A model generated the notes under the pieces. It saw nothing but the letters and a program-made list of their open reading frames with translations. It had not been told where the DNA came from and made no database searches. This document shows, one piece after another, positions 9,986 through 42,238 of a stretch of 53,608 nucleotides of DNA; position 1 is the stretch's first letter, and every line of letters begins with the position of its first letter. The position numbers and the translations under genes are program-made. Source of the DNA: a virus (taxonomy: Duplodnaviria > Caudoviricetes); the IMG/VR virus record IMGVR_UViG_3300032093_000184, positions 1-53,608 of that record; one strand, given 5' to 3'.

Positions 9986-12900
9986 ATGGCTAAAGCCGGG
10001 TTGAGTTTCAGCAGCCCCTTGTATGGGGGCACAGATACTGACGTATCACGGTTTGCCACCGCAGAATATATGGGGAATCCTGCTGCAAGCTCTGGGCTTA
10101 ACGGCATCGGGGGGACTTCGCTTGCTAGTATGGCAGCGCTGACTGAGCAGATTGTGAAGTCAAGCCAGTTCGAGATGCCGACGTTGAAGAATCCTCCGGC
10201 CATTGCGTTCAGCCCATCACAGAAGAAGTTGTTTGTACAAGGCCAAGAGTTTGCGGCTGATGACGCTACTCGTGCGCTTCAGTCTGAATCTTTGCTACGC
10301 GGCCCTTCTACTGCAATGCCGCAAGGCGGCGACTGGGTTCCGCTGGATGAGGCCGCGTATTCTCAGTACCTTGACTCGATTAAAAATCCCAGCATGGGTC
10401 GCCTTGCCAAGAAGAACTTTGGCATTGGTGTTGACAACATGCAGTTGCTTGCTGGTCGGGCACTACAACTGGGTGGCGCTGAACAACTTGGCGGGTCTAT
10501 TGTCGAACAGCAACAGGAAGATTTAGGGAAAACCCTACCATTCCAACGCGAGTTCACGGACATTGGCTCTAAGCCATACGGTCAAAGCCGTGGTGTTCTT
10601 GACTGGTTTGTAGCCAACCTTGCGCAGCAAGGGCCGAACTTGGTGGAGTCCGTAGTGACTGCCGCCGCAGGCTTTGCCGCTGGTACTGCTACTGCTGGCC
10701 CTCTTGCCAGTGTCCCCGGTGCGCTTGCAGCCTTGGCTGGTAAAGCAGAAGCCAAGCAAGCCATTCTTGCTGCGGCAAAAAAATATGCAGCAGGTCAAGC
10801 AACCAAAGAAGAACTCAAAATCCTAAGTAACGCCGCTGGTGTTTTAGGTGCAGCGACTACTTCACTGGCACAGAACTACGCAACTGGCGCTGCTGACATC
10901 TATGGTGAGCAACGTGACCAAGGGGTTGGCGCAGAGGATATGCGTGCCCGTGTCAATGCGTTGATGGGTGCTTTCCCTTATGCAGCGTTGGAGTCCTTAC
11001 CTGAATTTATGCTTGCCAGCCGAGTGCTTGGTGGCGGTAAAGGTATTGGCTCAAGCTGGGGCATGGCTCCCGGCGCTACACGCTTGCAACGTGGTGCTGG
11101 CTATGCTGGTCGTGCAGCAGTCGGCGGTGTTGCTGGCGGTACGTTAGAAGGACTTACTGAGACTGGTCAGGAAGGGTTGCTCCTTGGCATATCAGAACAA
11201 GACTTCTCTAACCCTGAGAATATAAACCGCTTGATTAACTCCTTTGCCGCTGGCTTCGGAGTGGGTGGCCCGATTGGTGCTATCGCCAATTTGAAAGGTA
11301 CAGCACCTGCCAACATCCTTACTGGGGAAAGTACTGATCCCACTGGTAAAGCTACAGGCACTGGTCTTGCTCCATACAATCCACCTCCTGCACCCCCCGG
11401 TCGTCCGTTCACTGATGTGCAGTTCATGGGGGCTATTCCTCCTGAACCTCCTGCACTTGGTGGCCCAAGCCCAACTACGCCACAACTTCCCGGCCCTACT
11501 CCTCCTGTATCCCCAATGGGTGGGCCAGTCATTATGGCTGGCATGGGGCCAAACGCTGCGGATGTCACGCGGCAAGATGTTCTGTTGCGTCAGCAGGGTA
11601 ACGTCCCGCCCGGTGCAACACCCGGCTCACAAGGCGTGCTGGATATTTTCGGTGGAACTATTCCTGCTCAGGAGTTGGCTGCACGTATGCAGCCACAGCA
11701 ACCACTCCCCGGCTTGCCTGCGCCGTCTGCTCCCCCCGTGGTCGATCCTCGTCAGGGTGCATTGCAGTTCGGTGGCCCAGCCCCTCAAGCTCCTGCTAAC
11801 CCAATCTTGGCGCAGCGGATGCAGGCGGCTCTTGCGTCACAACAACGTGCACAAGAATTCCAAGCTGCGCAAGCACAGCGGGCCGCCCAAGAGGAGGCAA
11901 TCAAACAGCAACAACTTGATAGATTACAGAACGAGGCTCGAATCCAGCAGCAGTTGGACTTGATGACGCAATCTCAGCAGCCTGCTCCGCAGTCAATGCC
12001 GATGCGTCCGATCCCTGTTTCTCAACCACAACAACTCCCACTGTTCAAACGTGGTGAGTTACCCCGTCCTTCACGGGCTGAGGGATTGCGTCGTGGCGTA
12101 GGTATGCAGACACCTGCGACACAGACGTTGACTATCCCTCCCACCGCTGGTGAATTCCAGCGTGCTGGACAAGGCATCCTGTTTAATCAACAGGGTCAGC
12201 CATCTATGCAGGCACTTAAGAGTGCAGGCAAGAAACAACCACTGCCCAAGCCAACGGTGGCAAAAGGCGTTACTCAGGCAAAACCTACGGGTAAACCCGT
12301 AACTGCCGTCACCGTGGCAAAGGCCGCGTCCAATCTGAAAAAGGGAGCACCCGATGCCACTCAAAAAGGGAAGCAGCAACAAGGTAGTGTCAGCCAACGT
12401 AAGCAAGATAATGCGGGAGTACAAGGCGGGGGGCAAGCTGGGAACCAGCCCACGACCCAAGTCCAAGGCGGCGGCACTCAAGCAGGCGGTGGCGGCAAGT
12501 CTCTCCAGCGCGGGTCGCAGCAAACCCAAAAAGTAACACCCGCAACAACAGCCCTTAAGAAAGGGTCTGAACCAAAAAAAGTCGAGGCGGCAAAACCCGC
12601 CGCCAAACCAAAGGTTGAGAAGCTGAGTCCTGCCGAGGCATGGGAGGACAGGAAACCAGAGGGCGGCGTAGCGTACAGCACGCTTTCAGATGCGCAGAAG
12701 AGACGCTGGGCAACTGAGAATTACTACGACCGTGCCACCATGTCGTTGGCTGATGAGATTAATGCTCAGGCTATACCGCTACCTGCTGAAGAAGAACTGG
12801 CAGACTTGTCTTACATGGAATTGTTGGATGAGGATATTGCTACGGCTGAGTCCACCACAGATGCAAGTGCGTTCCGTGATGCGATTGAGAACATCATGTT

Positions 12901-15900
12901 CCATGCCTACTTTGATACTGACTCCAACAATGAGAAAGCTGGTGTCATTGATAAGGCGCAGATGTTCTTGCTTGAGACTGGCTTTACCGAAGATCAGCGT
13001 GGCATCATGGACACCGCATTGCTGGATGTCGTCAATGACCGACTGGAAGTCGGGGCTGCTTACACCCGTGGTAATCTAAAGGGCACACTAAAGCCTTGGT
13101 TTACCTATGCGCAGATGCGCAACTTGCTCCCAAGCATTGGATCAAAGCTCATTGGGTTGTCCGACACGCAAGTGGCTGAGTTGTTGCAAGCTCGCCAGAT
13201 CAGTGAGCAAAACGTACCTGTATCTGTTTACAAGAAGTACAAGACCTCGCTGCCTGCTGGTGAGTCAGTTGTCAATACCAAGAAGGTCACCTCACTCAAC
13301 CGCATTGTTGACCAGTCTGGTGCAAAACTGGCAAACTTCATCCGCGATTTAGTAACCCGCGTTAGGGAAATCCCTACGCTGACCAAGGAAGTGGTGTTTG
13401 GTTCTGAGCGTTTTGCCAACATCAAAGCACTGACCAAGCAGTTGTACAGTGAACTCGATGAAGCTGGCCGCAACTACATGCTGCCTGATGGAAGCAAAGT
13501 CAAAGACTACTTCAACGACAAGGGTGAGGCAAAGCTCATCAAGTCTGATGGTCGCTACATCCTAAGCCAAGTTGAACTTACTGAAGAACAGCAACGTGCC
13601 CGTGAAGAAGAACGCCGTGCTGAGTTGCGTGCATTAGGTGAAGCAGCCGCAGCAGAGTCAAAGGCAGAGCAAGATATTATCAACGCCCGTAAGCGTGGTG
13701 CACGTGGTAGCGAAACTGTGCAGGATTGGGATAAACCCGAAGGTAACTTCTACCGTGATGATGGCACGCCAATGGGTTCTGCTATCCCACTTGGTCGTGT
13801 GAAGTTGTTGGTCAAAGGTTTCTTGGCAAAGCTCAAGGTCAAACCTACTGTCCATGTGTACGCCAATGTTGCTGACTTGCAGGCTCGCAATCCTGAGTTG
13901 TATCAGCGTGCCGCTGCTGCTCGTAAGCAAGGTGACTTCGACACAACCAATGCCGTGGGTTACTCCTTCGGCCCTGAAGTCATCATCTTCTCCGACTTTG
14001 TTCGTACTGAACAACAGTTGAAATTTGTACTGGCTCACGAAACCATTGGTCACTTTGGTTTCAAAGGTGTGATGGGTCAGTCTGAATTGAACAAGGTACT
14101 GAATCGTATATATCAAACTGACCCTGATGTGCAGGCCGCAGTTGACGCAATGGTCGAAACCCAAGGAATGGATAGGCTGGAAGCCATAGAGGAATATCTG
14201 GCTGACAACGCTGCTGACCTAGATGTATCAATCATCGCAAGGTTGTGGAACGCCTTGAAGAACGCCCTGAACAAACTTGGCTTTAGCTTCAAAGACGACG
14301 AAGCTCGCCAGCTTGTGAACCTTGCACGCCGCTATGTGCGTGAAGGCAGCACGGGCAACTTCTTCAGCGCCTCATCCTTTGTGGGCCACATGGAGGACAT
14401 GGAACAAACAGTAGCAGACGGTAAATACGCACGTAATTTTGCTGGCAACATCGGCTCACGAGGCATGGCAATGAACGCCTTGAATCGTAGGCACGGCCCC
14501 GGTGCTGGTATGTTTGGGTCGATGGACGCCTTCCAGAAAGGGCTGTTCGGCAAGACAGGAGATGTTGGTGTAAACGTAGGCAAGATACTTGAGAAGGTAC
14601 AGACCCTCGACAACATGGCTCGCAAGAGCTATGGCCTCAATCAGATATTCCGTATCTTTGAACAACGAAGTCAGAAGGCTCGCGCTCTACTCTCCAAGTA
14701 CTCACGCTACATGGCGTTCACCCACACACCACGTGTGTTTGGATTCGGTGGCGGCGTGTCTGAGGAGGAGAAACAACAAGCTGGGGAACTTGCTGCATAC
14801 GCTGCGCTGTTCAAGTCACGCCAGTTGACTGATGAGTTGATGGAGTCATACGGCTCCATGATTACTAAAGACGCAATGGGTAATGTCACTGTTGACCCAC
14901 GTGTGCGCCAGTTGTTAGAGAAGGCAGGCACTGTGACTGCGGAAGAATTCCGCAAGGGTTTTGATGTAGAACTCGGCACTGGTGAAAGAATCAAGTACCA
15001 GTTCAATGTTGATGAGAACAGCCCAGTGTGGCGTGTCTACACTGAGATGCGTGAGACAGTAAACGACGCAGCAGTAGATTTGCTGCTATCAAACTATGAA
15101 GCATCTCAAGCAGAACAGCAACGGGTGTTCAATGAACTCGCTGGTATGAAAGGACTCAAGGCTGAGTTCTCTGCACAAGACCTTGCTGCTATCCGCAAAG
15201 TAATTGAGATGTATCAGAACATCCGCTATGGTGGTAGCCGCATTGCAAACGCTTCCGTCGAAGTACAAAAGGGTGCAGACCAGCGCTCTGAGAAATTCAT
15301 CTACAACTTTGGTCGTGCGCTATTCAATGACGATGTGTTTGACGCATGGATGAAGAACCCACGTATCTCTGGTGAGATGCTCAAAGATTTTGAAGAGTTT
15401 CAGAAGGCTGAGTACGACGATATTCGCGCCGCTATCCCCGCAATTCGTGACAAGATTCGTAACAAAGAGCAAGCCTTTGCAATTCAGAAGGCTGTGCAAG
15501 ACATCTTCTTGTTTGATTTGCAGACACGCAACGCGGAATTCTACGCAAAGCGCACCATCCTTGGCTCATACGTTCCGTTCAGCCGCCGTGGTGAGTACCA
15601 AGCTAGGGTGGCAGCGTTCGATGCTCAAGGTAACCCAGTGCGTTTGGATGAGAACATCCGTGACGCCATGCCCTACTTCCAGTTTGAGACTGAGAGTGAA
15701 GCAACCGCTGCACGCGAGGCATTGGAGAATGAGTTCGGCAATGGGCAAGAGTGGATTCTTAAAGATGAGTACGGCGCAGAGATCAAAGTAACTCTGCGTG
15801 CAGAATCTTCAGAAGCCGCAGTCAGCCCATCTTTAACTGAAGCCGTGAACTTCAATGAGTTCATCTATGTGCTGAACCGCTTGAACGTAAACATCACACC

Positions 15901-17965
15901 AACCGCACGTGAACGTATTGTCAAGACACTGACGAATCAAAACGACCGTGCTCGTAAGAACTTACAACGTAGTGGTAATCCCGGATGGGACAGCGACATC
16001 GTGCGTTCTGTGTCTGAGCATCTAGAGATGGTGGCTCACGTTGCCGCCAAGAAAATCTACCGCCACCGTCTTGATGACATCATGCTCAACAATTCGTCAT
16101 GGCTTGGTGACCCACAGAAGCTCAAGGATTTGCAGGCTGCGATTGATACAGCAACTACTGACGGGCAGCGTGTTAGAGCGCAACGTGCGTACGATGAGTA
16201 TGCGTTCATGTACAAGTACATGGCTCCTAAAGCTGCTGGCGTTACGGTCAATGGTGAACCTACACTGGGACAAGGTGAGCGCTATCGTGAAGAAGCCAAG
16301 AAACTTATTCGCTGGTACAACGACTCATCCAATATTAACGACAGCACCGAAGATATGTTGTCGGGGGAAGCTGGCTCGTTCCTAAAACTAATCACAGTGT
16401 TGATGCAGTTGGGTGGTTCAGTTGCATCCGCAGCCGTGAACTTTGTATCTCTGCTTACCCACAGTACACCATACCTGTCCTACTACAACGCCAAGCGTGG
16501 TTATGGCGGCGGTTACGGTGAGGCCAAAGCCGTGACCTCCCTCTACCGTGCGGCCCTTGATGCAGGCAGTTACAAGCTGGAGGACGCTGGGTTCTTGAAT
16601 GACTTGCTGGTCAATGGTGGGTACGACAAGTATGGACTGACAGAGGATGAGACTAAGTTCTTGTTTGATGCCACTGAGCAGGGCACATTGCAGGCGGCTC
16701 AGTTCAACGCACTGGTGGGTACAGCACGTGGCAAGGTGTTTAACAATAAAGCACAAGCAGGTATTAAGGCATGGATGGCTATGTTCTCCTATACAGAGCA
16801 GGCCAACCGCCGAATCACTGCACTGGCAGCGTACCGCCTTGAGAAAGAACGTGCACTGTCACAAGGGTTGAGCGAAGAACAAGCAATCGCTGAGGCTACT
16901 GAGGCAGCACGGATTGCGGTCAACACATCGCAAGGTGAGTACGCCATGTTCAACCGACCAGAGATGGCACGTGGCAACGTAGCTCAATACATATTCATGT
17001 ACAAGCAGTTCGTAATCATCACCGTCCAACTGCTGCGTAACATGCCAGTTCGTGGGCAGTTGTTGATGCTTGGCTTACTGTTGATGATGAGTGGTCTGAA
17101 GGGCATACCATTTGCTGACGACCTCGCTGACATTGTTGACACAATCGCGCAGATGCTCGGCCTCAAAGTGGCAAGCATCGAGAAAGCTACTGCTGAATGG
17201 GTTGATAGTGTGGCCCCGGGAATGTCGCCGTATGTCATGCGTGGTTTGATTGACCGTGCAGTCGGTGCGACTGTATCTACCCGCTTGGGTATGGGCGATC
17301 TAGTTCCGTTGACTGGTGCTCTTAAAGCTGGCGCAGACCCTGCACGTGAGATCGGTGACTTTGCTGGCCCAGTGTTCAGCGGTATCAGTGGGCTGGTATC
17401 AATGGCAGGTGGTTTGGCTAAGTATGGTGCTGAGGTAACGGGCCTGCGTGATGACACTACATCCCTCAACACATTGATGCGAGAGTCCCCAATAGCTGCG
17501 CTGCGGTCTGTCGGAGACAGTTTTGCGTACCTGTCAAGTGGTGACATCACGAACGTACGTGGTCAGATGGTTGCCAAGGATGCACAAGCGCACGTAATTC
17601 TTGCTCGACTACTCGGCTTCTACCCAGCGATAGCCACTCAGCAGAACGATATTGTTCGTATGTCCAAGCAAGTCAATGAATACGGCAAGGCGGTCAAAGC
17701 AGAATATGTTGCTGCGTATGTGAAGGCTCGGGCTGCCGGTGACCAAGAGGCAGCAGATAATATTGCATCCGCAGTAAGCCAGTGGAATGAGGATTCCAAG
17801 GGTACAGGTTTGGAAGTGACTAAGTTCTTGCAGTCTGCCAATCGTGCATATCGTGAGGCTCAGCGTCCAACTGCGTTGCGCTACATGAAGTCAGCGCCAA
17901 GGGCTATGCGTCCTGAGACCATAGAGTTGTTGAGACTCTACGGACTAGACGATGAGATCATGTAA
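9986..17965 (+). CDS. Giant internal virion / polyvalent protein with a zincin-like metallopeptidase domain
   Basis: 2659 aa; LAHETIGHFG (HExxGH) at 14036-14053 with downstream EEYLA; C-terminal helical region (E..NR..LAAYRL, NRP, FMYKQF) typical of large podophage ejection proteins. Confidence 0.8.
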   Translation: MAKAGLSFSSPLYGGTDTDVSRFATAEYMGNPAASSGLNGIGGTSLASMAALTEQIVKSSQFEMPTLKNPPAIAFSPSQKKLFVQGQEFAADDATRALQSESLLRGPSTAMPQGGDWVPLDEAAYSQYLDSIKNPSMGRLAKKNFGIGVDNMQLLAGRALQLGGAEQLGGSIVEQQQEDLGKTLPFQREFTDIGSKPYGQSRGVLDWFVANLAQQGPNLVESVVTAAAGFAAGTATAGPLASVPGALAALAGKAEAKQAILAAAKKYAAGQATKEELKILSNAAGVLGAATTSLAQNYATGAADIYGEQRDQGVGAEDMRARVNALMGAFPYAALESLPEFMLASRVLGGGKGIGSSWGMAPGATRLQRGAGYAGRAAVGGVAGGTLEGLTETGQEGLLLGISEQDFSNPENINRLINSFAAGFGVGGPIGAIANLKGTAPANILTGESTDPTGKATGTGLAPYNPPPAPPGRPFTDVQFMGAIPPEPPALGGPSPTTPQLPGPTPPVSPMGGPVIMAGMGPNAADVTRQDVLLRQQGNVPPGATPGSQGVLDIFGGTIPAQELAARMQPQQPLPGLPAPSAPPVVDPRQGALQFGGPAPQAPANPILAQRMQAALASQQRAQEFQAAQAQRAAQEEAIKQQQLDRLQNEARIQQQLDLMTQSQQPAPQSMPMRPIPVSQPQQLPLFKRGELPRPSRAEGLRRGVGMQTPATQTLTIPPTAGEFQRAGQGILFNQQGQPSMQALKSAGKKQPLPKPTVAKGVTQAKPTGKPVTAVTVAKAASNLKKGAPDATQKGKQQQGSVSQRKQDNAGVQGGGQAGNQPTTQVQGGGTQAGGGGKSLQRGSQQTQKVTPATTALKKGSEPKKVEAAKPAAKPKVEKLSPAEAWEDRKPEGGVAYSTLSDAQKRRWATENYYDRATMSLADEINAQAIPLPAEEELADLSYMELLDEDIATAESTTDASAFRDAIENIMFHAYFDTDSNNEKAGVIDKAQMFLLETGFTEDQRGIMDTALLDVVNDRLEVGAAYTRGNLKGTLKPWFTYAQMRNLLPSIGSKLIGLSDTQVAELLQARQISEQNVPVSVYKKYKTSLPAGESVVNTKKVTSLNRIVDQSGAKLANFIRDLVTRVREIPTLTKEVVFGSERFANIKALTKQLYSELDEAGRNYMLPDGSKVKDYFNDKGEAKLIKSDGRYILSQVELTEEQQRAREEERRAELRALGEAAAAESKAEQDIINARKRGARGSETVQDWDKPEGNFYRDDGTPMGSAIPLGRVKLLVKGFLAKLKVKPTVHVYANVADLQARNPELYQRAAAARKQGDFDTTNAVGYSFGPEVIIFSDFVRTEQQLKFVLAHETIGHFGFKGVMGQSELNKVLNRIYQTDPDVQAAVDAMVETQGMDRLEAIEEYLADNAADLDVSIIARLWNALKNALNKLGFSFKDDEARQLVNLARRYVREGSTGNFFSASSFVGHMEDMEQTVADGKYARNFAGNIGSRGMAMNALNRRHGPGAGMFGSMDAFQKGLFGKTGDVGVNVGKILEKVQTLDNMARKSYGLNQIFRIFEQRSQKARALLSKYSRYMAFTHTPRVFGFGGGVSEEEKQQAGELAAYAALFKSRQLTDELMESYGSMITKDAMGNVTVDPRVRQLLEKAGTVTAEEFRKGFDVELGTGERIKYQFNVDENSPVWRVYTEMRETVNDAAVDLLLSNYEASQAEQQRVFNELAGMKGLKAEFSAQDLAAIRKVIEMYQNIRYGGSRIANASVEVQKGADQRSEKFIYNFGRALFNDDVFDAWMKNPRISGEMLKDFEEFQKAEYDDIRAAIPAIRDKIRNKEQAFAIQKAVQDIFLFDLQTRNAEFYAKRTILGSYVPFSRRGEYQARVAAFDAQGNPVRLDENIRDAMPYFQFETESEATAAREALENEFGNGQEWILKDEYGAEIKVTLRAESSEAAVSPSLTEAVNFNEFIYVLNRLNVNITPTARERIVKTLTNQNDRARKNLQRSGNPGWDSDIVRSVSEHLEMVAHVAAKKIYRHRLDDIMLNNSSWLGDPQKLKDLQAAIDTATTDGQRVRAQRAYDEYAFMYKYMAPKAAGVTVNGEPTLGQGERYREEAKKLIRWYNDSSNINDSTEDMLSGEAGSFLKLITVLMQLGGSVASAAVNFVSLLTHSTPYLSYYNAKRGYGGGYGEAKAVTSLYRAALDAGSYKLEDAGFLNDLLVNGGYDKYGLTEDETKFLFDATEQGTLQAAQFNALVGTARGKVFNNKAQAGIKAWMAMFSYTEQANRRITALAAYRLEKERALSQGLSEEQAIAEATEAARIAVNTSQGEYAMFNRPEMARGNVAQYIFMYKQFVIITVQLLRNMPVRGQLLMLGLLLMMSGLKGIPFADDLADIVDTIAQMLGLKVASIEKATAEWVDSVAPGMSPYVMRGLIDRAVGATVSTRLGMGDLVPLTGALKAGADPAREIGDFAGPVFSGISGLVSMAGGLAKYGAEVTGLRDDTTSLNTLMRESPIAALRSVGDSFAYLSSGDITNVRGQMVAKDAQAHVILARLLGFYPAIATQQNDIVRMSKQVNEYGKAVKAEYVAAYVKARAAGDQEAADNIASAVSQWNEDSKGTGLEVTKFLQSANRAYREAQRPTALRYMKSAPRAMRPETIELLRLYGLDDEIM
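12354..12536 (+). CDS. Small basic protein nested in the +1 frame of the giant ORF (DUF6496-like)
   Basis: SD AAGGGAG at 12341-12347, 6 nt before ATG; MPLKKGSS..VSANV..MREYKAG..KQAVAASLS.AG resembles a common stand-alone phage family. Confidence 0.75.
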   Translation: MPLKKGSSNKVVSANVSKIMREYKAGGKLGTSPRPKSKAAALKQAVAASLSSAGRSKPKK

Positions 17966-39965: not shown

Positions 39966-42020
39966 ATGGCGGGTCTGTCATTTCTTCGCGTTGTAAGTAA
40001 CTCTGATCTCTCTCGTCAACAGGACAAAGAGGCGTCGGATAAAGCTTTGGCGGAACGCCAGAGTCAGCCGTTGATCCTTGGGCTTACGGCTTATCTGCGT
40101 GAGTGCTGGGACGCTGCACAACAAGCGAAGAAACCCATTGAGCAGAAGATGCTTAAGGCGCTACGCCAGCGCAATGGTGAGTACGAAGACGATAAAGCTC
40201 GTGACATCAAAGCACAGGGCGGCTCTGACATATACATGATGATTACTGAAGTGAAGTGTCGTGCAGCCGAGTCTTGGCTGCGAGACATTTTGCTTGATAG
40301 CGGTACACCTCCTTGGGATATTCAGGCGACTCCAATCCCTGATATGTCTCCGCAGCAGTCGAAGGCTATCCAAGAAATTTTTGCGTACAAGGTTTTAAAA
40401 CTTGTCGAGGAAACTGGGCAAGCGCCTAACCCTGCTGCAATGAGCGAGATCAAAGAGATGGTCGCACAAGACTATCGCTTTAATATTTTGCAAGAAGCAC
40501 AGAACCGTGCCGACAAGATGAAGATCAAGATCAGCGACCAGTTTGCTCAAGGCGGCTGGGCTGAGGCCTTCAATGATTTTGTTACCGACTTGGTGACATA
40601 CCCTTCAGCATTTATCAAAGGGCCGGTTGTCCGTAGGCAACGTGCGCTCGGATGGGAAGCTGATCCTGTTACAGGCAAGACTATCGCCAAACCTATTGAG
40701 CGAATTGCGCCAGAACATGAACGAGTTGATCCGTTCCGTATCTATCCTGAGCCGGGCATTACCAACATTAAAGATGGCTACCTGTTTGAGCATCACCGCT
40801 TGAGCCGAATGGAACTTGCCGACTTGGTAGGTGTCCCCGGCTACGACGATGATGCTATTCGCAAAGTCCTTGATATTGGCAATGGTCAGTCTTGGATCAA
40901 CATGGATGTGGAGCTTCTCAAGCAGGAGCAAGAGCGTAAGTTCTATTCGCACATGCGCCCAACTGAGATGTTCGATGCCTTGGAGTTCTGGGGCAAAGTA
41001 TCTGGAAAGATGTTGATCGAGTGGGGGCTTACTGAGGAGGATGTTCCTGATTCTGCTCGTGAGTATGACACCAACATCTGGCAAGTAGGCAACTACACCA
41101 TCAAGGCTGTATTGAATTACGACCCCCTTGGTGAGAAGCCATACGCTAAAACCTCGTTTATCAAGTGCCCCGGCTCATTCTGGGGTAAGGCTATTCCCGA
41201 AGTCATTGAGGACGTGCAGAACGTCTGTAATGCTTCAGCACGGGCCTTGGTCAACAACATGGGTATTGCTTCTGGCCCACAGGTCGAAGTTAACCTTGAA
41301 CGGTTGCCGCCCAACGAGGACATCACACAGATTCACCCTTGGAAAATCTGGCAGACGCTCAACGATCCTATTGGTTCAAGTGCCCCTGCCGTACGGTTTA
41401 CGCAACCTGAAGACAATGCAAACACACTCATGGCTGTGTACGAGAGATTCAGCAAGTTGGCTGATGAGCACTCCGGTATTCCAGCGTACATGTATGGTGA
41501 CTTGAATGTACAAGGCGCTGGCCGTACTTCTTCTGGCTTGTCTATGCTGATGGGCGCATCCGGTAAGGGTATTCGCCAAGTCGTGATGCACATTGACAGC
41601 GATGTGATTAAGCCCATCGTGCAACGCCAGTTTGTGTACAACATGCGCTACGACGAGGACGAGTCCATCAAGGGCGACGCACAAGTCATGGCTAGAGGCG
41701 CAGTTAACTTGGCGGTCAAAGAGACCGTTAACGTGCGCCGTATCGAATTCCTTAATGCAACTGCCAATCAGATCGACATGGAGATTGTCGGTAAGGATGG
41801 TAGAGCAGCGATTCTTCGTGAGATCGCAAAAGGTCTACAAATGCCTGTGGATGACATCGTTCCATCTCGGGAGAAAACTGCGTTCCTTGGTAGGGCGCAG
41901 GCTCAGATTGCTGCACAGCAATCGCAACAAGAGCCTACACCTACTCAACCGGACGGTTCTCCCAAAGGTGGTATGGATGGAAACACAGTCAGTAACCGTG
42001 TAAGTGGGAGGGCGGCATGA
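39966..42020 (+). CDS. Portal protein
   Basis: 684 aa between TerL and scaffold; VDPF..YP.P, FWG, SFWGK, GAGRTSSGLSMLM; podovirus-type portal. Confidence 0.88.
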   Translation: MAGLSFLRVVSNSDLSRQQDKEASDKALAERQSQPLILGLTAYLRECWDAAQQAKKPIEQKMLKALRQRNGEYEDDKARDIKAQGGSDIYMMITEVKCRAAESWLRDILLDSGTPPWDIQATPIPDMSPQQSKAIQEIFAYKVLKLVEETGQAPNPAAMSEIKEMVAQDYRFNILQEAQNRADKMKIKISDQFAQGGWAEAFNDFVTDLVTYPSAFIKGPVVRRQRALGWEADPVTGKTIAKPIERIAPEHERVDPFRIYPEPGITNIKDGYLFEHHRLSRMELADLVGVPGYDDDAIRKVLDIGNGQSWINMDVELLKQEQERKFYSHMRPTEMFDALEFWGKVSGKMLIEWGLTEEDVPDSAREYDTNIWQVGNYTIKAVLNYDPLGEKPYAKTSFIKCPGSFWGKAIPEVIEDVQNVCNASARALVNNMGIASGPQVEVNLERLPPNEDITQIHPWKIWQTLNDPIGSSAPAVRFTQPEDNANTLMAVYERFSKLADEHSGIPAYMYGDLNVQGAGRTSSGLSMLMGASGKGIRQVVMHIDSDVIKPIVQRQFVYNMRYDEDESIKGDAQVMARGAVNLAVKETVNVRRIEFLNATANQIDMEIVGKDGRAAILREIAKGLQMPVDDIVPSREKTAFLGRAQAQIAAQQSQQEPTPTQPDGSPKGGMDGNTVSNRVSGRAA

Positions 42021-42238
42021 TCCGTCCTGACGACAAGGCCATGCAAGCGCTTGCGAACGTCTCGCGCCAGTACCCCGAAGTTCGGGACTGGCTTAAGATG
42101 TGGTATGAGCACGAGCTATCCAAGTTGCCACTCGCAGTAAACAACCCGGCAGTCCCACAGGGGCGCTGTCAGGTATTGGGCGAGGTATACAACCTCGTCA
42201 AAGATGCCCCTGATTTTGTAGCGGCAAAGTCAAAATGA
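42017..42238 (+). CDS. Small conserved-type protein following the portal gene
   Basis: ATGA overlap; QGR.QVL motif typical of this gene position. Confidence 0.7.
   Translation: MIRPDDKAMQALANVSRQYPEVRDWLKMWYEHELSKLPLAVNNPAVPQGRCQVLGEVYNLVKDAPDFVAAKSK

What the first reader, a model, noticed from the sequence alone, without database searches (positions are those of the whole stretch)
12341..12536. A complete small basic protein gene nested inside the giant ejection-protein gene
Seen: a 60-codon ORF in the +1 frame with its own SD (AAGGGAG, 6-nt spacer), encoding MPLKKGSSNKVVSANVSKIMREYKAGGKLGTSPRPKSKAAALKQAVAASLSSAGRSKPKK. The 2659-aa frame stays open through it and reads as Q/G-rich low-complexity linker (KGKQQQGSVSQ..GVQGGGQAGNQ..QAGGGGK). 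Knowledge, recalled rather than searched: MPLKKG.S..(I/V)S.N(I/V) and KVMREYKAG..KQA(I/V)A.ALS.AG are signatures of small Lys-rich proteins (DUF6496-like) that normally stand alone among phage head genes. Inference: an ancestral free gene was absorbed when the large gene fused or extended across it, and both frames are still used. The product could be a DNA-condensing core protein co-expressed with the ejection protein. Standard gene callers would miss it.
Basis: partly seen in the sequence, partly recalled or inferred. Interest (0 to 1): 0.85.

Follow-up and report, generated by a model that had tools for sequence, protein, structure and literature searches.

The report
Small gene nested in giant gene
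A complete 60-codon gene for a very basic small phage protein lies out of frame inside the flexible linker of a 2,659-codon virion-protein gene; related phages show that both readings are kept by selection and that this spot is a conserved slot holding one of two unrelated small genes.

Summary
ORF 12354-12536 (60 aa, pI 11.4) has its own AAGGGAG ribosome-binding site. It lies in the +1 frame of the open 2659-codon ORF 9986-17965. It is a true member of a large phage family of small basic proteins (MPLKKGSS...KQAVAxALSxAGKS). That family usually stands alone, most often overlapping the stop of the portal gene.

Selection keeps both frames:
- The nested frame carries the protein-level constraint: 16 of 55 amino-acid columns vary, against 36 of 55 in the giant frame, and serine codon families switch.
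- The giant frame is kept open by avoiding T-ending codons. The chance of an open frame under synonymous recoding is about 0.001. All 73 free-standing homologues have at least one stop in that frame.

The new result is that this position is a conserved slot in the PLxRFG giant genes. Of 42 full-length relatives, 12 carry this gene and 27 to 29 carry an unrelated small basic gene (MPFKSxAQ...) at the same site and in the same frame. One carries neither and none carries both.

Swaps break at the first 10-13 bases and at or within about 40 bases after the stop. Expression and function are untested. The likely function is a virion-associated partner protein. Three first-reader notes of this scan describe the same arrangement in other genomes.

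The parts
9986..17965 (+). Giant host ORF of 2659 codons. Its low-complexity N-terminal half runs to about residue 900. A C-terminal PLxRFG domain follows. It reads through the nested gene as a Q/G-rich linker (residues 790-851).
   Evidence: Homologous over its whole length to giants in related contigs: 95% aa identity (L005), 57% (L004), 33-48% (L001, L002, L090, L092).
12341..12347 (+). Shine-Dalgarno-like AAGGGAG, 6 nt before the nested ATG.
   Evidence: A GGAG/GAGG/AGGA core lies at -14 to -10 in 13 of 14 distinct upstream contexts of carriers, against a 6% background within the giant ORFs.
12354..12536 (+). Nested type-1 small basic protein gene: 60 aa, pI 11.35, 12 K and 3 R, two predicted helices (residues 9-24 and 38-52). 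It lies in the +1 frame of the giant ORF.
   Evidence: Homology. Selection.
12352..12553 (+). Exchangeable cassette. Against the 97%-identical relative L097 this stretch is replaced by 160 unrelated in-frame bases. Against L099 the break lies at 12366/12577.
   Evidence: The parallel pair L148/L151 breaks at +10 and +168 of the nested ORF.
12086..12685 (+). The most low-complexity part of the giant protein (residues 701-900, G/Q/P/A/S/T/K fraction 0.74-0.75), in which the nested gene lies.
14036..14053 (+). HETIGH (HExxH-type) motif in the giant protein, residue 1351. A possible zincin-like peptidase site, not tested by profile.
   Evidence: Context from PMC5512222, passages read.
16394..17863 (+). 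PLxRFG ('tail-700') domain of the giant protein, residues 2137-2626.
   Evidence: NCBIfam NF032893, 183.7 bits against a cut-off of 100. phrog_11358, E 5.3e-43.

Best explanation
A real small gene is lodged, with its own ribosome-binding site, start and stop, in the +1 frame of the disordered linker of a giant PLxRFG virion-protein gene.

Inferred mechanism:
- The late structural mRNA is read in two ways. Ribosomes that started at 9986 read through the region as a tolerant Q/G-rich spacer and go on to make the 2659-aa protein.
- Other ribosomes start internally at the AAGGGAG/ATG at 12354. They make a 60-aa, two-helix, very basic protein (pI 11.4) and stop at 12536.
- The small gene carries the amino-acid constraint. 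The giant frame needs only to stay open and in phase. This is achieved by purging T-ending codons before AA-, AG- and GA-starting codons.

The position is an old, conserved slot of this giant-gene family. It holds either this gene (type 1) or an unrelated small basic gene (type 2, MPFKSxAQ...), never both. Alleles are swapped by recombination, with breakpoints in the shared MPxK 5' end and at or shortly after the K-rich 3' end.

Most likely function (inferred, about 40%): a virion-associated small basic protein that acts with the packaged giant protein, the portal or the DNA. Examples would be an escort, a charge-neutralising partner or an internal protein. It would be made from the same message as its partner.
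For: Anatomy.

Homology to free-standing genes: 55-61% identity over 56-60 residues, tblastn E about 1e-15. 2641 representative clusters were found; the best 150 are all 55-323 aa, with the domain nearly always starting at residue 1.

Conserved island:
- The nested protein is 84-97% identical in contigs whose giant protein is only 33-57% identical.
- The DNA alignment shows that conservation begins at the SD and start and ends at the stop, with flanks that do not align.

Nested frame is the constrained one, from 11 distinct alleles:
- Variable nucleotide columns by nested codon position are 16/17/32.
- Variable amino-acid columns are 16 of 55 in the nested frame and 36 of 55 in the giant frame.
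- Pairwise differences that are synonymous only in the nested frame number 604 over 103 opportunities. Those synonymous only in the giant frame number 189 over 117.
- Serine switches between the AGC and TCA codon families.
- In the upstream flank, 10 of 10 differences from L005 fall on giant codon position 3.

Start signals: the start is ATG or GTG, the stop is always TAA, and an SD core is present in 13 of 14 distinct contexts against a 6% background.

Giant frame is kept open:
- There are 0 stops in all 8 carriers examined, and at least 1 stop in all 73 free-standing homologues.
- P(open) is 0.001.
- T ends 2 of 60 nested codons, and 0 of 22 at risk positions, against 29% genome-wide.

Extent of the arrangement:
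- All 15 loci with the exact 20-mer are nested.
- In all, the window plus 20 viral contigs show the arrangement.

Slot:
- Of 42 untruncated giants, 12 are type 1, 27 are type 2, 2 more are type 2 with an unclear start, 1 has neither and 0 have both.
- Type 2 shows the same signature: P(open) below 0.001, T-ending codons 0-4 of 45-84, and amino-acid identity 0.53 in the nested frame against 0.39 in the giant frame.
- The two families are unrelated by hhalign (probability 1.5%).

No other copy of type 1:
- The window has one copy only.
- Type 1 is absent from 5 of 5 non-carrier records, two of them 100% complete. The positive control found it in 5 of 5 carriers.

No sigma-70-like promoter lies on the + strand within 11800-12800.

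Virion link:
- Free type 1 sits at the portal gene.
- Free type 2 sits in structural modules, between portal and scaffold in L217.
- The PLxRFG giant of Pseudomonas phage H66 is annotated as verified by mass spectrometry as part of the virion.
Against: - There is no direct evidence that either product is made. No cultured phage with the arrangement was found. tblastn of the phage collection found nothing with the 60-aa query, possibly because of the low-complexity filter. The H66 giant has no nested homologue.
- Contigs from four RNA libraries cover the region, and one spans 12346-12718. Contigs cannot show frame, start or even transcription.
- Type-1 alleles are very alike even at synonymous sites. 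Nucleotide identity between the two deep giant clades has a median of 0.85, against 0.63 for type 2. Part of the 'conservation' may therefore be recent spread. The pairwise substitution counts are not phylogenetically independent.
- One relative (L097) has no nested gene at all, and complete genomes lack type 1. So type 1 is not individually essential.
- Pfam DUF6496 membership fails the curated threshold.
- The function is inferred from gene position and composition only. Fold searches gave nothing.
Confidence: 0.82

Rival explanations
1. The nested ORF is an untranslated relic. A small gene was recently copied into the linker and has simply not had time to decay. Only the giant protein is made.
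For: - Type-1 alleles are unusually similar between deeply split giant clades (median nucleotide identity 0.85), and their presence is patchy (at least 7 changes). Both are compatible with recent spread.
- No expression data exist.
- L097 does without any nested gene.
Against: - Among 11 distinct alleles the changes fall as expected for a coding frame. Serine codon-family switches keep Ser.
- The SD core is kept in 13 of 14 otherwise unrelated upstream contexts, the start is ATG or GTG, and the stop is always TAA.
- A divergent type-1 allele (L144, 62% aa identity) and the L032/L033 allele (58%) are still intact and nested.
- The older type-2 occupants have diverged to 44-62% identity and are still intact ORFs.
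Confidence: 0.06
2. The conserved island reflects a function of the giant protein's own linker peptide, or of the nucleic acid itself (an RNA structure or a recombination site). On this reading the +1 ORF is incidental.
For: - Nucleotide conservation is high at all three codon positions.
- The first 30 nt are identical between the window and L033, although the proteins are only 58% identical overall.
- Swap breakpoints sit at the ends of the ORF.
Against: - The giant-frame peptide varies at 36 of 55 columns, against 16 of 55 for the nested frame.
- Changes that are synonymous in the giant frame are accepted no more often than changes that alter both proteins: 189 over 117 opportunities against 431 over 237.
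- The nested frame, not the giant frame, is homologous to hundreds of free-standing genes.
- Relatives replace the whole stretch with unrelated linker or with a different nested gene.
Confidence: 0.04
3. The small domain is not made on its own. It is joined to the N-terminal 790 residues of the giant protein by a programmed +1 ribosomal frameshift, giving a shorter protein that ends at 12536.
For: An A-rich run (CTG AAA AAG GGA) lies just upstream, and the +1 frame ends with a stop soon after.
Against: - The +1 frame has a stop only 5 codons before the ATG in the window. The open stretch before the start is no more than 17 codons in the five close relatives examined.
- The upstream sequence is not conserved between carriers, so there is no shared slippery site.
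- The family always starts at Met1 or Val1 with its own SD, both free-standing and nested.
Confidence: 0.02
4. Both frames are translated, but the giant ORF product does not work as one protein. The linker with the nested gene is only a tether, cut after synthesis (for example by the HExxH domain) into an N-terminal and a C-terminal protein. On this reading the arrangement is a gene-order device for three products.
For: - The giant protein has an HETIGH motif.
- Autoproteolysis by such domains in large packaged phage proteins has been proposed (PMC5512222, passages read).
- The linker sequence is free to vary.
Against: Nothing here tests cleavage. This reading is compatible with the best explanation and refines it rather than replacing it.
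Confidence: 0.06

Closest known systems
Lambda Rz/Rz1 embedded spanin genes (recalled; review listings PMC5295617 and PMC6139136 seen only in search results)
   Same: A complete small gene with its own start lies wholly inside a larger gene on the same strand in the +1 frame, and both are thought to be translated from one late mRNA.
   Different: - The host gene here is a 2659-codon virion protein, and only its disordered linker is overlapped.
- The embedded gene belongs to an old family that usually stands alone.
- The slot holds either of two unrelated genes.
- No functional pairing has been shown.
Overprinted genes of small viruses, such as phiX174 B in A or E in D (recalled; review PMC8227390 seen as abstract only)
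   Same: One stretch of DNA codes in two frames, with an adaptive conflict between them.
   Different: In classical overprinting the new gene is born inside an old one. Here the embedded frame is the old, constrained one, and the host frame over it is the unconstrained, low-complexity reading.
Free-standing phage small basic proteins: phrog_2423 and the fringe of Pfam DUF6496 (PF20106)
   Same: Same sequence family. They share the N-terminal MPLKKGSSxK, the KQAVAxALSxAGKS helix and a length of 46-90 aa. Identity is 55-61% over the whole length.
   Different: Those genes stand alone, mostly overlapping the portal gene's stop. Many carry a C-terminal ...KKKDGNRPVKIY extension that the nested form lacks. 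Function is unknown in both. No paper mentions DUF6496.
PLxRFG ('tail-700', NF032893) giant structural proteins and polyvalent phage proteins (PMC5512222)
   Same: The host gene has the PLxRFG C-terminal domain above the curated cut-off. Like the H66 homologue, which is annotated as virion-borne, it sits at the end of the structural operon.
   Different: The cultured Pseudomonas phage H66 giant has no nested small gene. The polyvalent-protein paper has no occurrence of 'frameshift' or 'lysine-rich' among the terms I searched, and I did not read it in full.
Small basic capsid-internal proteins such as T4 IPI-III (recalled, not searched)
   Same: Small, very basic proteins encoded among head genes. 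This is the functional analogy I favour.
   Different: No homology, targeting signal or packaging was shown here.

Membership tests
Pfam DUF6496 (PF20106) | Whole-protein score at or above the gathering score of 24 bits | tested here: not met
   The score is 15.2 bits, E 0.029. Only 2 of 35 family members reach E<=0.01. The nearest Atlas clusters carry DUF6496 in only 13-17% of their members. I call it DUF6496-like at most.
phrog_2423 (phage protein of unknown function) | Significant match to the family profile | tested here: met
   E 9.9e-8 and 32.9 bits, but only over residues 1-22 of a 52-position profile. The free-standing relative in L038 matches at E 1.5e-13.
MPLKKGSS...KQAVAxALSxAGKS small basic phage proteins (type 1, defined here by alignment A2) | Full-length similarity to free-standing members, with the domain starting at residue 1 | tested here: met
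   Identity is 55-61% over residues 1-56/60, tblastn E 1e-14 to 1e-16. Invariant columns include M1 P2 L3 K5 G6 S8 K10 N15 A45 A47 A53. The profile finds 2641 clusters.
Embedded same-strand overlapping gene (Rz/Rz1-type architecture) | A complete ORF with its own RBS and start inside a larger open ORF, in another frame of the same strand | tested here: met
Embedded same-strand overlapping gene (Rz/Rz1-type architecture) | Both protein products shown to be made | not testable with these tools
   Only selection signatures are available, plus RNA-library contigs that cannot tell frames apart.
PLxRFG domain proteins (NCBIfam NF032893), for the host gene | Score at or above the curated cut-off of 100 bits | tested here: met
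   183.7 bits, residues 2137-2626
Polyvalent phage proteins with a zincin-like MPTase (PMC5512222), for the host gene | A recognisable MPTase domain with HExxH plus further effector domains in one polypeptide | tested here: inconclusive
   An HETIGH motif lies at residue 1351. Pfam gives no domain and PDB sequence search gives nothing. No profile of the MPTase clades was at hand.
Capsid-internal (packaged, ejected) small basic proteins | Presence in virions, or a capsid-targeting or cleavage signal | not testable with these tools
   Only the gene neighbourhood speaks for it.

The most novel reading that the evidence does not exclude
Giant ejection/virion-protein genes of several unrelated families carry an obligatory embedded-gene slot in their linker. 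The slot is filled by interchangeable, analogous small basic proteins (at least two unrelated families sharing an MPxK start and a Lys-rich tail). These proteins act as partners of the giant protein, for its packaging through or docking at the portal, or for its ejection. Embedding fixes co-expression and makes partner and host gene travel together. The shared ends serve as microhomology for cassette swapping between phages. If so, hundreds of uncalled genes of this kind exist in phage metagenomes.
Probability: 0.3. Interest if true: 0.88.

Novelty: new variant of a known kind. Interest (0 to 1): 0.78.

Why it matters
Embedded genes are known in phages, but mostly as young genes overprinted on old ones. 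Here the direction is reversed. An old, widely distributed small gene keeps its protein sequence, while a giant gene reads across it as a throw-away spacer. The cost is paid in codon choice: T-ending codons are almost abolished.

The position is conserved in 41 of 42 full-length giant genes and filled by either of two unrelated small genes, never both. This points to a functional tie between giant virion proteins and small basic partners that nobody has studied. It also gives a clean natural system for studying dual coding, internal initiation inside very long ORFs, and cassette exchange.

In practice, standard gene callers omit these genes. Two abundant families of phage small proteins are therefore under-counted, and their link to giant injected proteins is invisible in current annotations.

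Tried and rejected
- Fusion hypothesis. I first thought the giant's N-terminal 790 codons were the about-790-codon ORF that precedes the free-standing gene, joined by a CTT-to-CTC change that removes its TAA. I rejected this. That ORF is a portal protein, and its profile does not match the giant or its neighbours. The window has its own portal at 39966-42020, followed by an unrelated 73-aa ORF.
- In-frame fused forms of the small domain. None appears among the best 150 profile hits. None appears among proteins of 106-2000 aa. The tool itself calls the second result weak evidence.
- Structure. AlphaFold gives two helices (pLDDT 78.9). Foldseek against BFVD and PDB gave no match at E<=0.001 apart from a 43-aa viral relative at E 7e-3. 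PDB sequence searches were empty.
- Cultured relatives. blastn of the region and tblastn of the 60-aa protein against the phage collection found nothing. An 85-aa free-standing relative found three records, annotated as hypothetical. The H66 giant holds no nested homologue.
- Homology between the window's giant and the L033 giant, which also hosts a type-1 gene: BLASTP best E 0.057, and no PLxRFG domain in L033. I treat them as different giant families.
- The large proteins next to the free-standing genes have no PLxRFG domain.
- Internal promoter: none found by the simple scan.
- RNA. Four RNA-library runs were laid. They give short contigs only, with no starts or ends, so they are no evidence of transcription or frame. 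The parts without cover mean nothing.
- Literature. Searches for DUF6496 (0 papers), PLxRFG (5 papers, none on this) and three combinations of terms on embedded, nested or overlapping genes in phages turned up no description of this arrangement. Only listings and abstracts were seen, except for passages of PMC5512222. Supplements are closed.
Full report
OBSERVATION. The window reads AAGGGAG (12341-12347), a 6-nt spacer, ATG at 12354 and TAA at 12534-12536. The ORF listing gives ORF 12354..12536 (+, 60 aa) inside ORF 9986..17965 (+, 2659 aa). The nested frame is +1 relative to the giant frame. The product has pI 11.35, with 12 Lys, 3 Arg and 1 Glu. It overlaps giant residues 790-851, at the end of the most low-complexity part of the giant protein.

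THE SMALL GENE BELONGS TO A REAL FAMILY.
- Pfam gives only a sub-threshold DUF6496 hit: 15.2 bits against 24, E 0.029. Only 2 of 35 relatives reach E<=0.01.
- PHROGs gives phrog_2423 at E 9.9e-8, over the first 22 residues.
- A word-indexed protein search returned 16 proteins. Five are 80-98% identical and 59-74 aa long. Eleven are 46-75-aa stand-alone proteins of the form MPLKKGSS...PQKQAVAxALSxAGKSKPKK.
- A scan of IMG/VR found 378 loci that encode relatives, and the best 80 were kept.
- A profile of 35 members (A2) found 2641 representative clusters at E<=1e-3 among 1.84 billion proteins. The best 150 are all 55-323 aa, nearly always with the domain starting at residue 1.
- AlphaFold predicts two helices at residues 9-24 and 38-52, with pLDDT 78.9. 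Fold and PDB searches gave nothing useful.

WHERE THE FAMILY NORMALLY SITS.
- In 73 loci the gene is not nested.
- In 51 of these a long upstream ORF ends within the small gene's first seven codons. In 46 of them the stop is a TAA made by Leu3-Lys4 (CTT AAA).
- All 26 distinct long upstream ORFs are homologues of one protein, 56-100% identical. That protein matches the portal family phrog_1216 at E 6.5e-35.
- The gene order there is terminase, a large unknown protein, portal, small gene, then head genes.
- A GenBank record (Phage DSL-LC04) shows the same neighbourhood and annotates the gene as hypothetical.
- That portal is not related to the giant's N-terminus. I therefore dropped my first idea of a simple stop-codon loss.

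THE NESTED ARRANGEMENT RECURS, AND THE NESTED FRAME IS THE CONSTRAINED ONE.
- The window and seven loci (L001-L005, L032, L033) have the gene inside a 2536-2717-codon ORF. L003 is cut by the end of its contig.
- An exact 20-mer from the gene's 5' end found 15 loci, and all 15 are nested. Four further carriers came from the giant-gene search.
- In all, the window plus 20 viral contigs show the arrangement.
- The giants are homologous along their length, but at 95%, 57% and 33-48% amino-acid identity. The nested protein stays 84-97% identical.
- The DNA alignment shows an island of conservation. It starts at the SD and start codon and ends at the stop, between flanks that do not align.
- Eleven distinct alleles were compared:
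  - Variable nucleotide columns fall 16/17/32 on nested codon positions 1/2/3.
  - Amino-acid columns vary at 16 of 55 in the nested frame and at 36 of 55 in the giant frame.
  - Differences synonymous only in the nested frame number 604 (103 opportunities).
  - Differences synonymous only in the giant frame number 189 (117 opportunities).
  - Differences that change both proteins number 431 (237 opportunities).
  - Serine is kept through AGC-to-TCA family switches.
  - These pairwise counts are not phylogenetically independent.
- In the upstream flank, 10 of 10 differences from L005 lie on giant codon position 3. The periodicity therefore switches frame at the nested gene.
- The start is ATG or GTG and the stop is always TAA. 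A GGAG/GAGG/AGGA core lies 10-14 nt upstream in 13 of 14 distinct contexts, against 6% of positions in the giant ORFs.

THE GIANT FRAME IS KEPT OPEN.
- In the frame equivalent to the giant's, all 8 carriers have no stop. All 73 free-standing homologues have at least one, and commonly 2-5.
- I recoded the window's nested protein synonymously with the window's own codon usage. The giant frame stayed open in 0.103% of 100,000 trials, with a mean of 5.7 stops.
- The cause is visible. Only 2 of 60 nested codons end in T, and none of the 22 that precede an AA-, AG- or GA-starting codon does. Genome-wide the figure is 29%.
- So the giant reading is under selection to run through. Its amino acids, however, are not detectably constrained there.

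THE NEW FINDING: A CONSERVED SLOT WITH TWO ALTERNATIVE GENES.
- I searched IMG/VR with an alignment of the giant's C-terminal 986 residues (A4). This gave 79 loci. In 42 of them the giant ORF is untruncated, at 2264-3059 codons.
- Twelve of the 42 carry the type-1 gene, always in frame +1 at codon 766-925.
- Close relatives without it were revealing:
  - L097 (C-terminal part 97% identical) replaces 12352-12553 with 160 unrelated in-frame bases and has no nested ORF.
  - L099 keeps the SD and a GTG start but continues differently.
  - L151, L145 and L160, relatives of the carrier L148, have at the same place and in the same frame a different ORF with the same SD. It reads MPFKSQAQRKYLYANEPKVAAKFAKETPKGAKLPQKVKPSKPKKK.
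- tblastn with this type 2 found it in 33 loci of the giant family.
- Of the 42 full-length giants, 12 are type 1 and 27 are type 2. Two more are type 2 with an unclear start, one (L097) has neither, and none has both.
- Type 2 alleles are 44-96% identical to the reference allele (A5) and show the same dual-coding signature:
  - Nested-frame identity is 0.53, against 0.39 in the giant frame.
  - Codon position 2 is the least variable.
  - T-ending codons number 0-4 of 45-84, against 28-38% in the giant.
  - P(open) is below 0.001.
- Types 1 and 2 are unrelated by profile comparison (hhalign probability 1.5%).
- Type 2 is itself a large family: 398 viral loci were found. Of the best 80, 54 are free-standing and 26 are nested in the +1 frame of a long ORF. 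It matches phrog_1375 only weakly (5 of 26 members) and has no Pfam family.
- Free type-2 genes lie in structural modules. In L217 the gene lies between portal and scaffold. In L206 and L208 it follows tail-fibre genes.

HISTORY.
- I built a quick maximum-likelihood tree of the last 900 residues of the 42 full-length giants plus the window. The 37 truncated loci were left out. On this tree, presence of type 1 needs at least 7 changes. Near-identical giants differ in state, as in L096/L097 and L148/L151/L152.
- Between the two deep clades that hold type 1, type-1 alleles have a median nucleotide identity of 0.85 and amino-acid identity of 0.90. Type-2 alleles in the same slot have 0.63 and 0.49.
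- I read this as follows. Type 2 is the old resident that diverged together with its host gene. Type 1 spread later by cassette exchange. Stronger constraint on type 1 cannot be excluded.
- Two independent pairs of relatives break at the first 10-13 bases of the nested ORF, where both types encode MP(L/F)K. They break again at or up to about 40 bases after its K-rich end.
- More divergent type-1 genes are also nested. L144 is 62% identical, in a PLxRFG giant. L032/L033 is 58% identical, in a giant that shows no significant similarity to the window's and has no PLxRFG domain. The phenomenon is therefore not confined to one host-gene family.
- Type 1 is absent from 5 of 5 non-carrier records, two of them 100% complete. 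The same search found it in 5 of 5 carriers.

THE HOST GENE. Its C-terminus is the NCBIfam PLxRFG ('tail-700') domain, at 183.7 bits against a cut-off of 100. It also matches phrog_11358. The nearest cultured relatives are giant 'structural proteins' of Pseudomonas phages of the H66/F116 kind, at 25-29% identity. The H66 record notes that its protein was verified by mass spectrometry as part of the virion. It has no nested homologue. An HETIGH motif lies at residue 1351. Large packaged phage proteins with such peptidase motifs are discussed in PMC5512222 (passages read), but I could not test membership.

EXPRESSION. No sigma-70-like promoter lies on the + strand in 11800-12800, so the nested gene would be read from the giant gene's mRNA. 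The stretch occurs in 14 DNA runs at half or more of its sampled words. These runs are labelled freshwater, lake or 'fungus' metagenome. Six RNA-library runs hold small shares. Laying four of them gave short contigs. One covers 12346-12718. Two others have loose ends that match the L097-like and L099-like alleles. Contigs cannot show transcription, ends or frame, so this is no more than presence in RNA libraries.

VERDICT. Translation of both frames, and the role of the small protein, remain inferences. I favour a virion-associated partner of the giant protein, the portal or the DNA, at about 40%. Three first-reader notes of this scan describe the same arrangement in other genomes. Five literature searches found no published description.

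Noticed in passing
L151:7260-7397, L099:7323-7484 and 31 other loci: A second, unrelated family of small basic genes (MPFKSxAQxKWLYANKPxLAxxFExETPxxxKLP) occupies the same slot and frame in most relatives of the giant gene. It also occurs free-standing in structural modules of other phages: 54 free and 26 nested among the best 80 of 398 loci.
   Followed up: yes
L097:7390-7549: One close relative (97% identical in the C-terminal part) has no nested ORF at all. Instead it has an in-frame linker with the motif KLVERIKKGAFGGPTGVLGERLKQ. L099 carries the same motif next to its type-2 gene.
   Followed up: partly
window 12335-12349, 12360-12374 and 12554-12568: An LKKG-coding string (CTNAARAARGGN) occurs three times. 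It occurs in the giant frame just before the nested start, where it supplies the SD. It occurs in the nested frame as codons 3-6. It occurs again in the giant frame exactly where homology with L097 resumes. L097 also has the two giant-frame copies, so this is not a target-site duplication. It may be microhomology for cassette exchange.
   Followed up: partly
L033:10001-10168 (also L032): A 55-aa type-1 gene, 58% identical to the window's, is nested at codon 840 of a 2536-codon giant. That giant has no detectable similarity to the window's giant and no PLxRFG domain. It matches phrog_14770, phrog_616 and phrog_10691, and weakly a DarB-like family. The first 30 nt of the nested gene are identical to the window's.
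   Followed up: partly
window 42017-42238: The window's own portal gene (39966-42020) is followed, with an ATGA overlap, by an unrelated 73-aa ORF. This is the position where many other phages have the type-1 small gene.
   Followed up: no
free-standing type-1 genes, e.g. L008:10001-10258: Most free-standing forms carry a C-terminal extension ending ...(M)AKGG...VVKKKDGNRPVKIY, which all nested forms lack.
   Followed up: no
window 11600-13400, runs X15-X17: Contigs from lake and freshwater RNA libraries carry three allelic states of the slot: type 1, L097-like and L099-like. The variants therefore co-occur in such waters.
   Followed up: partly
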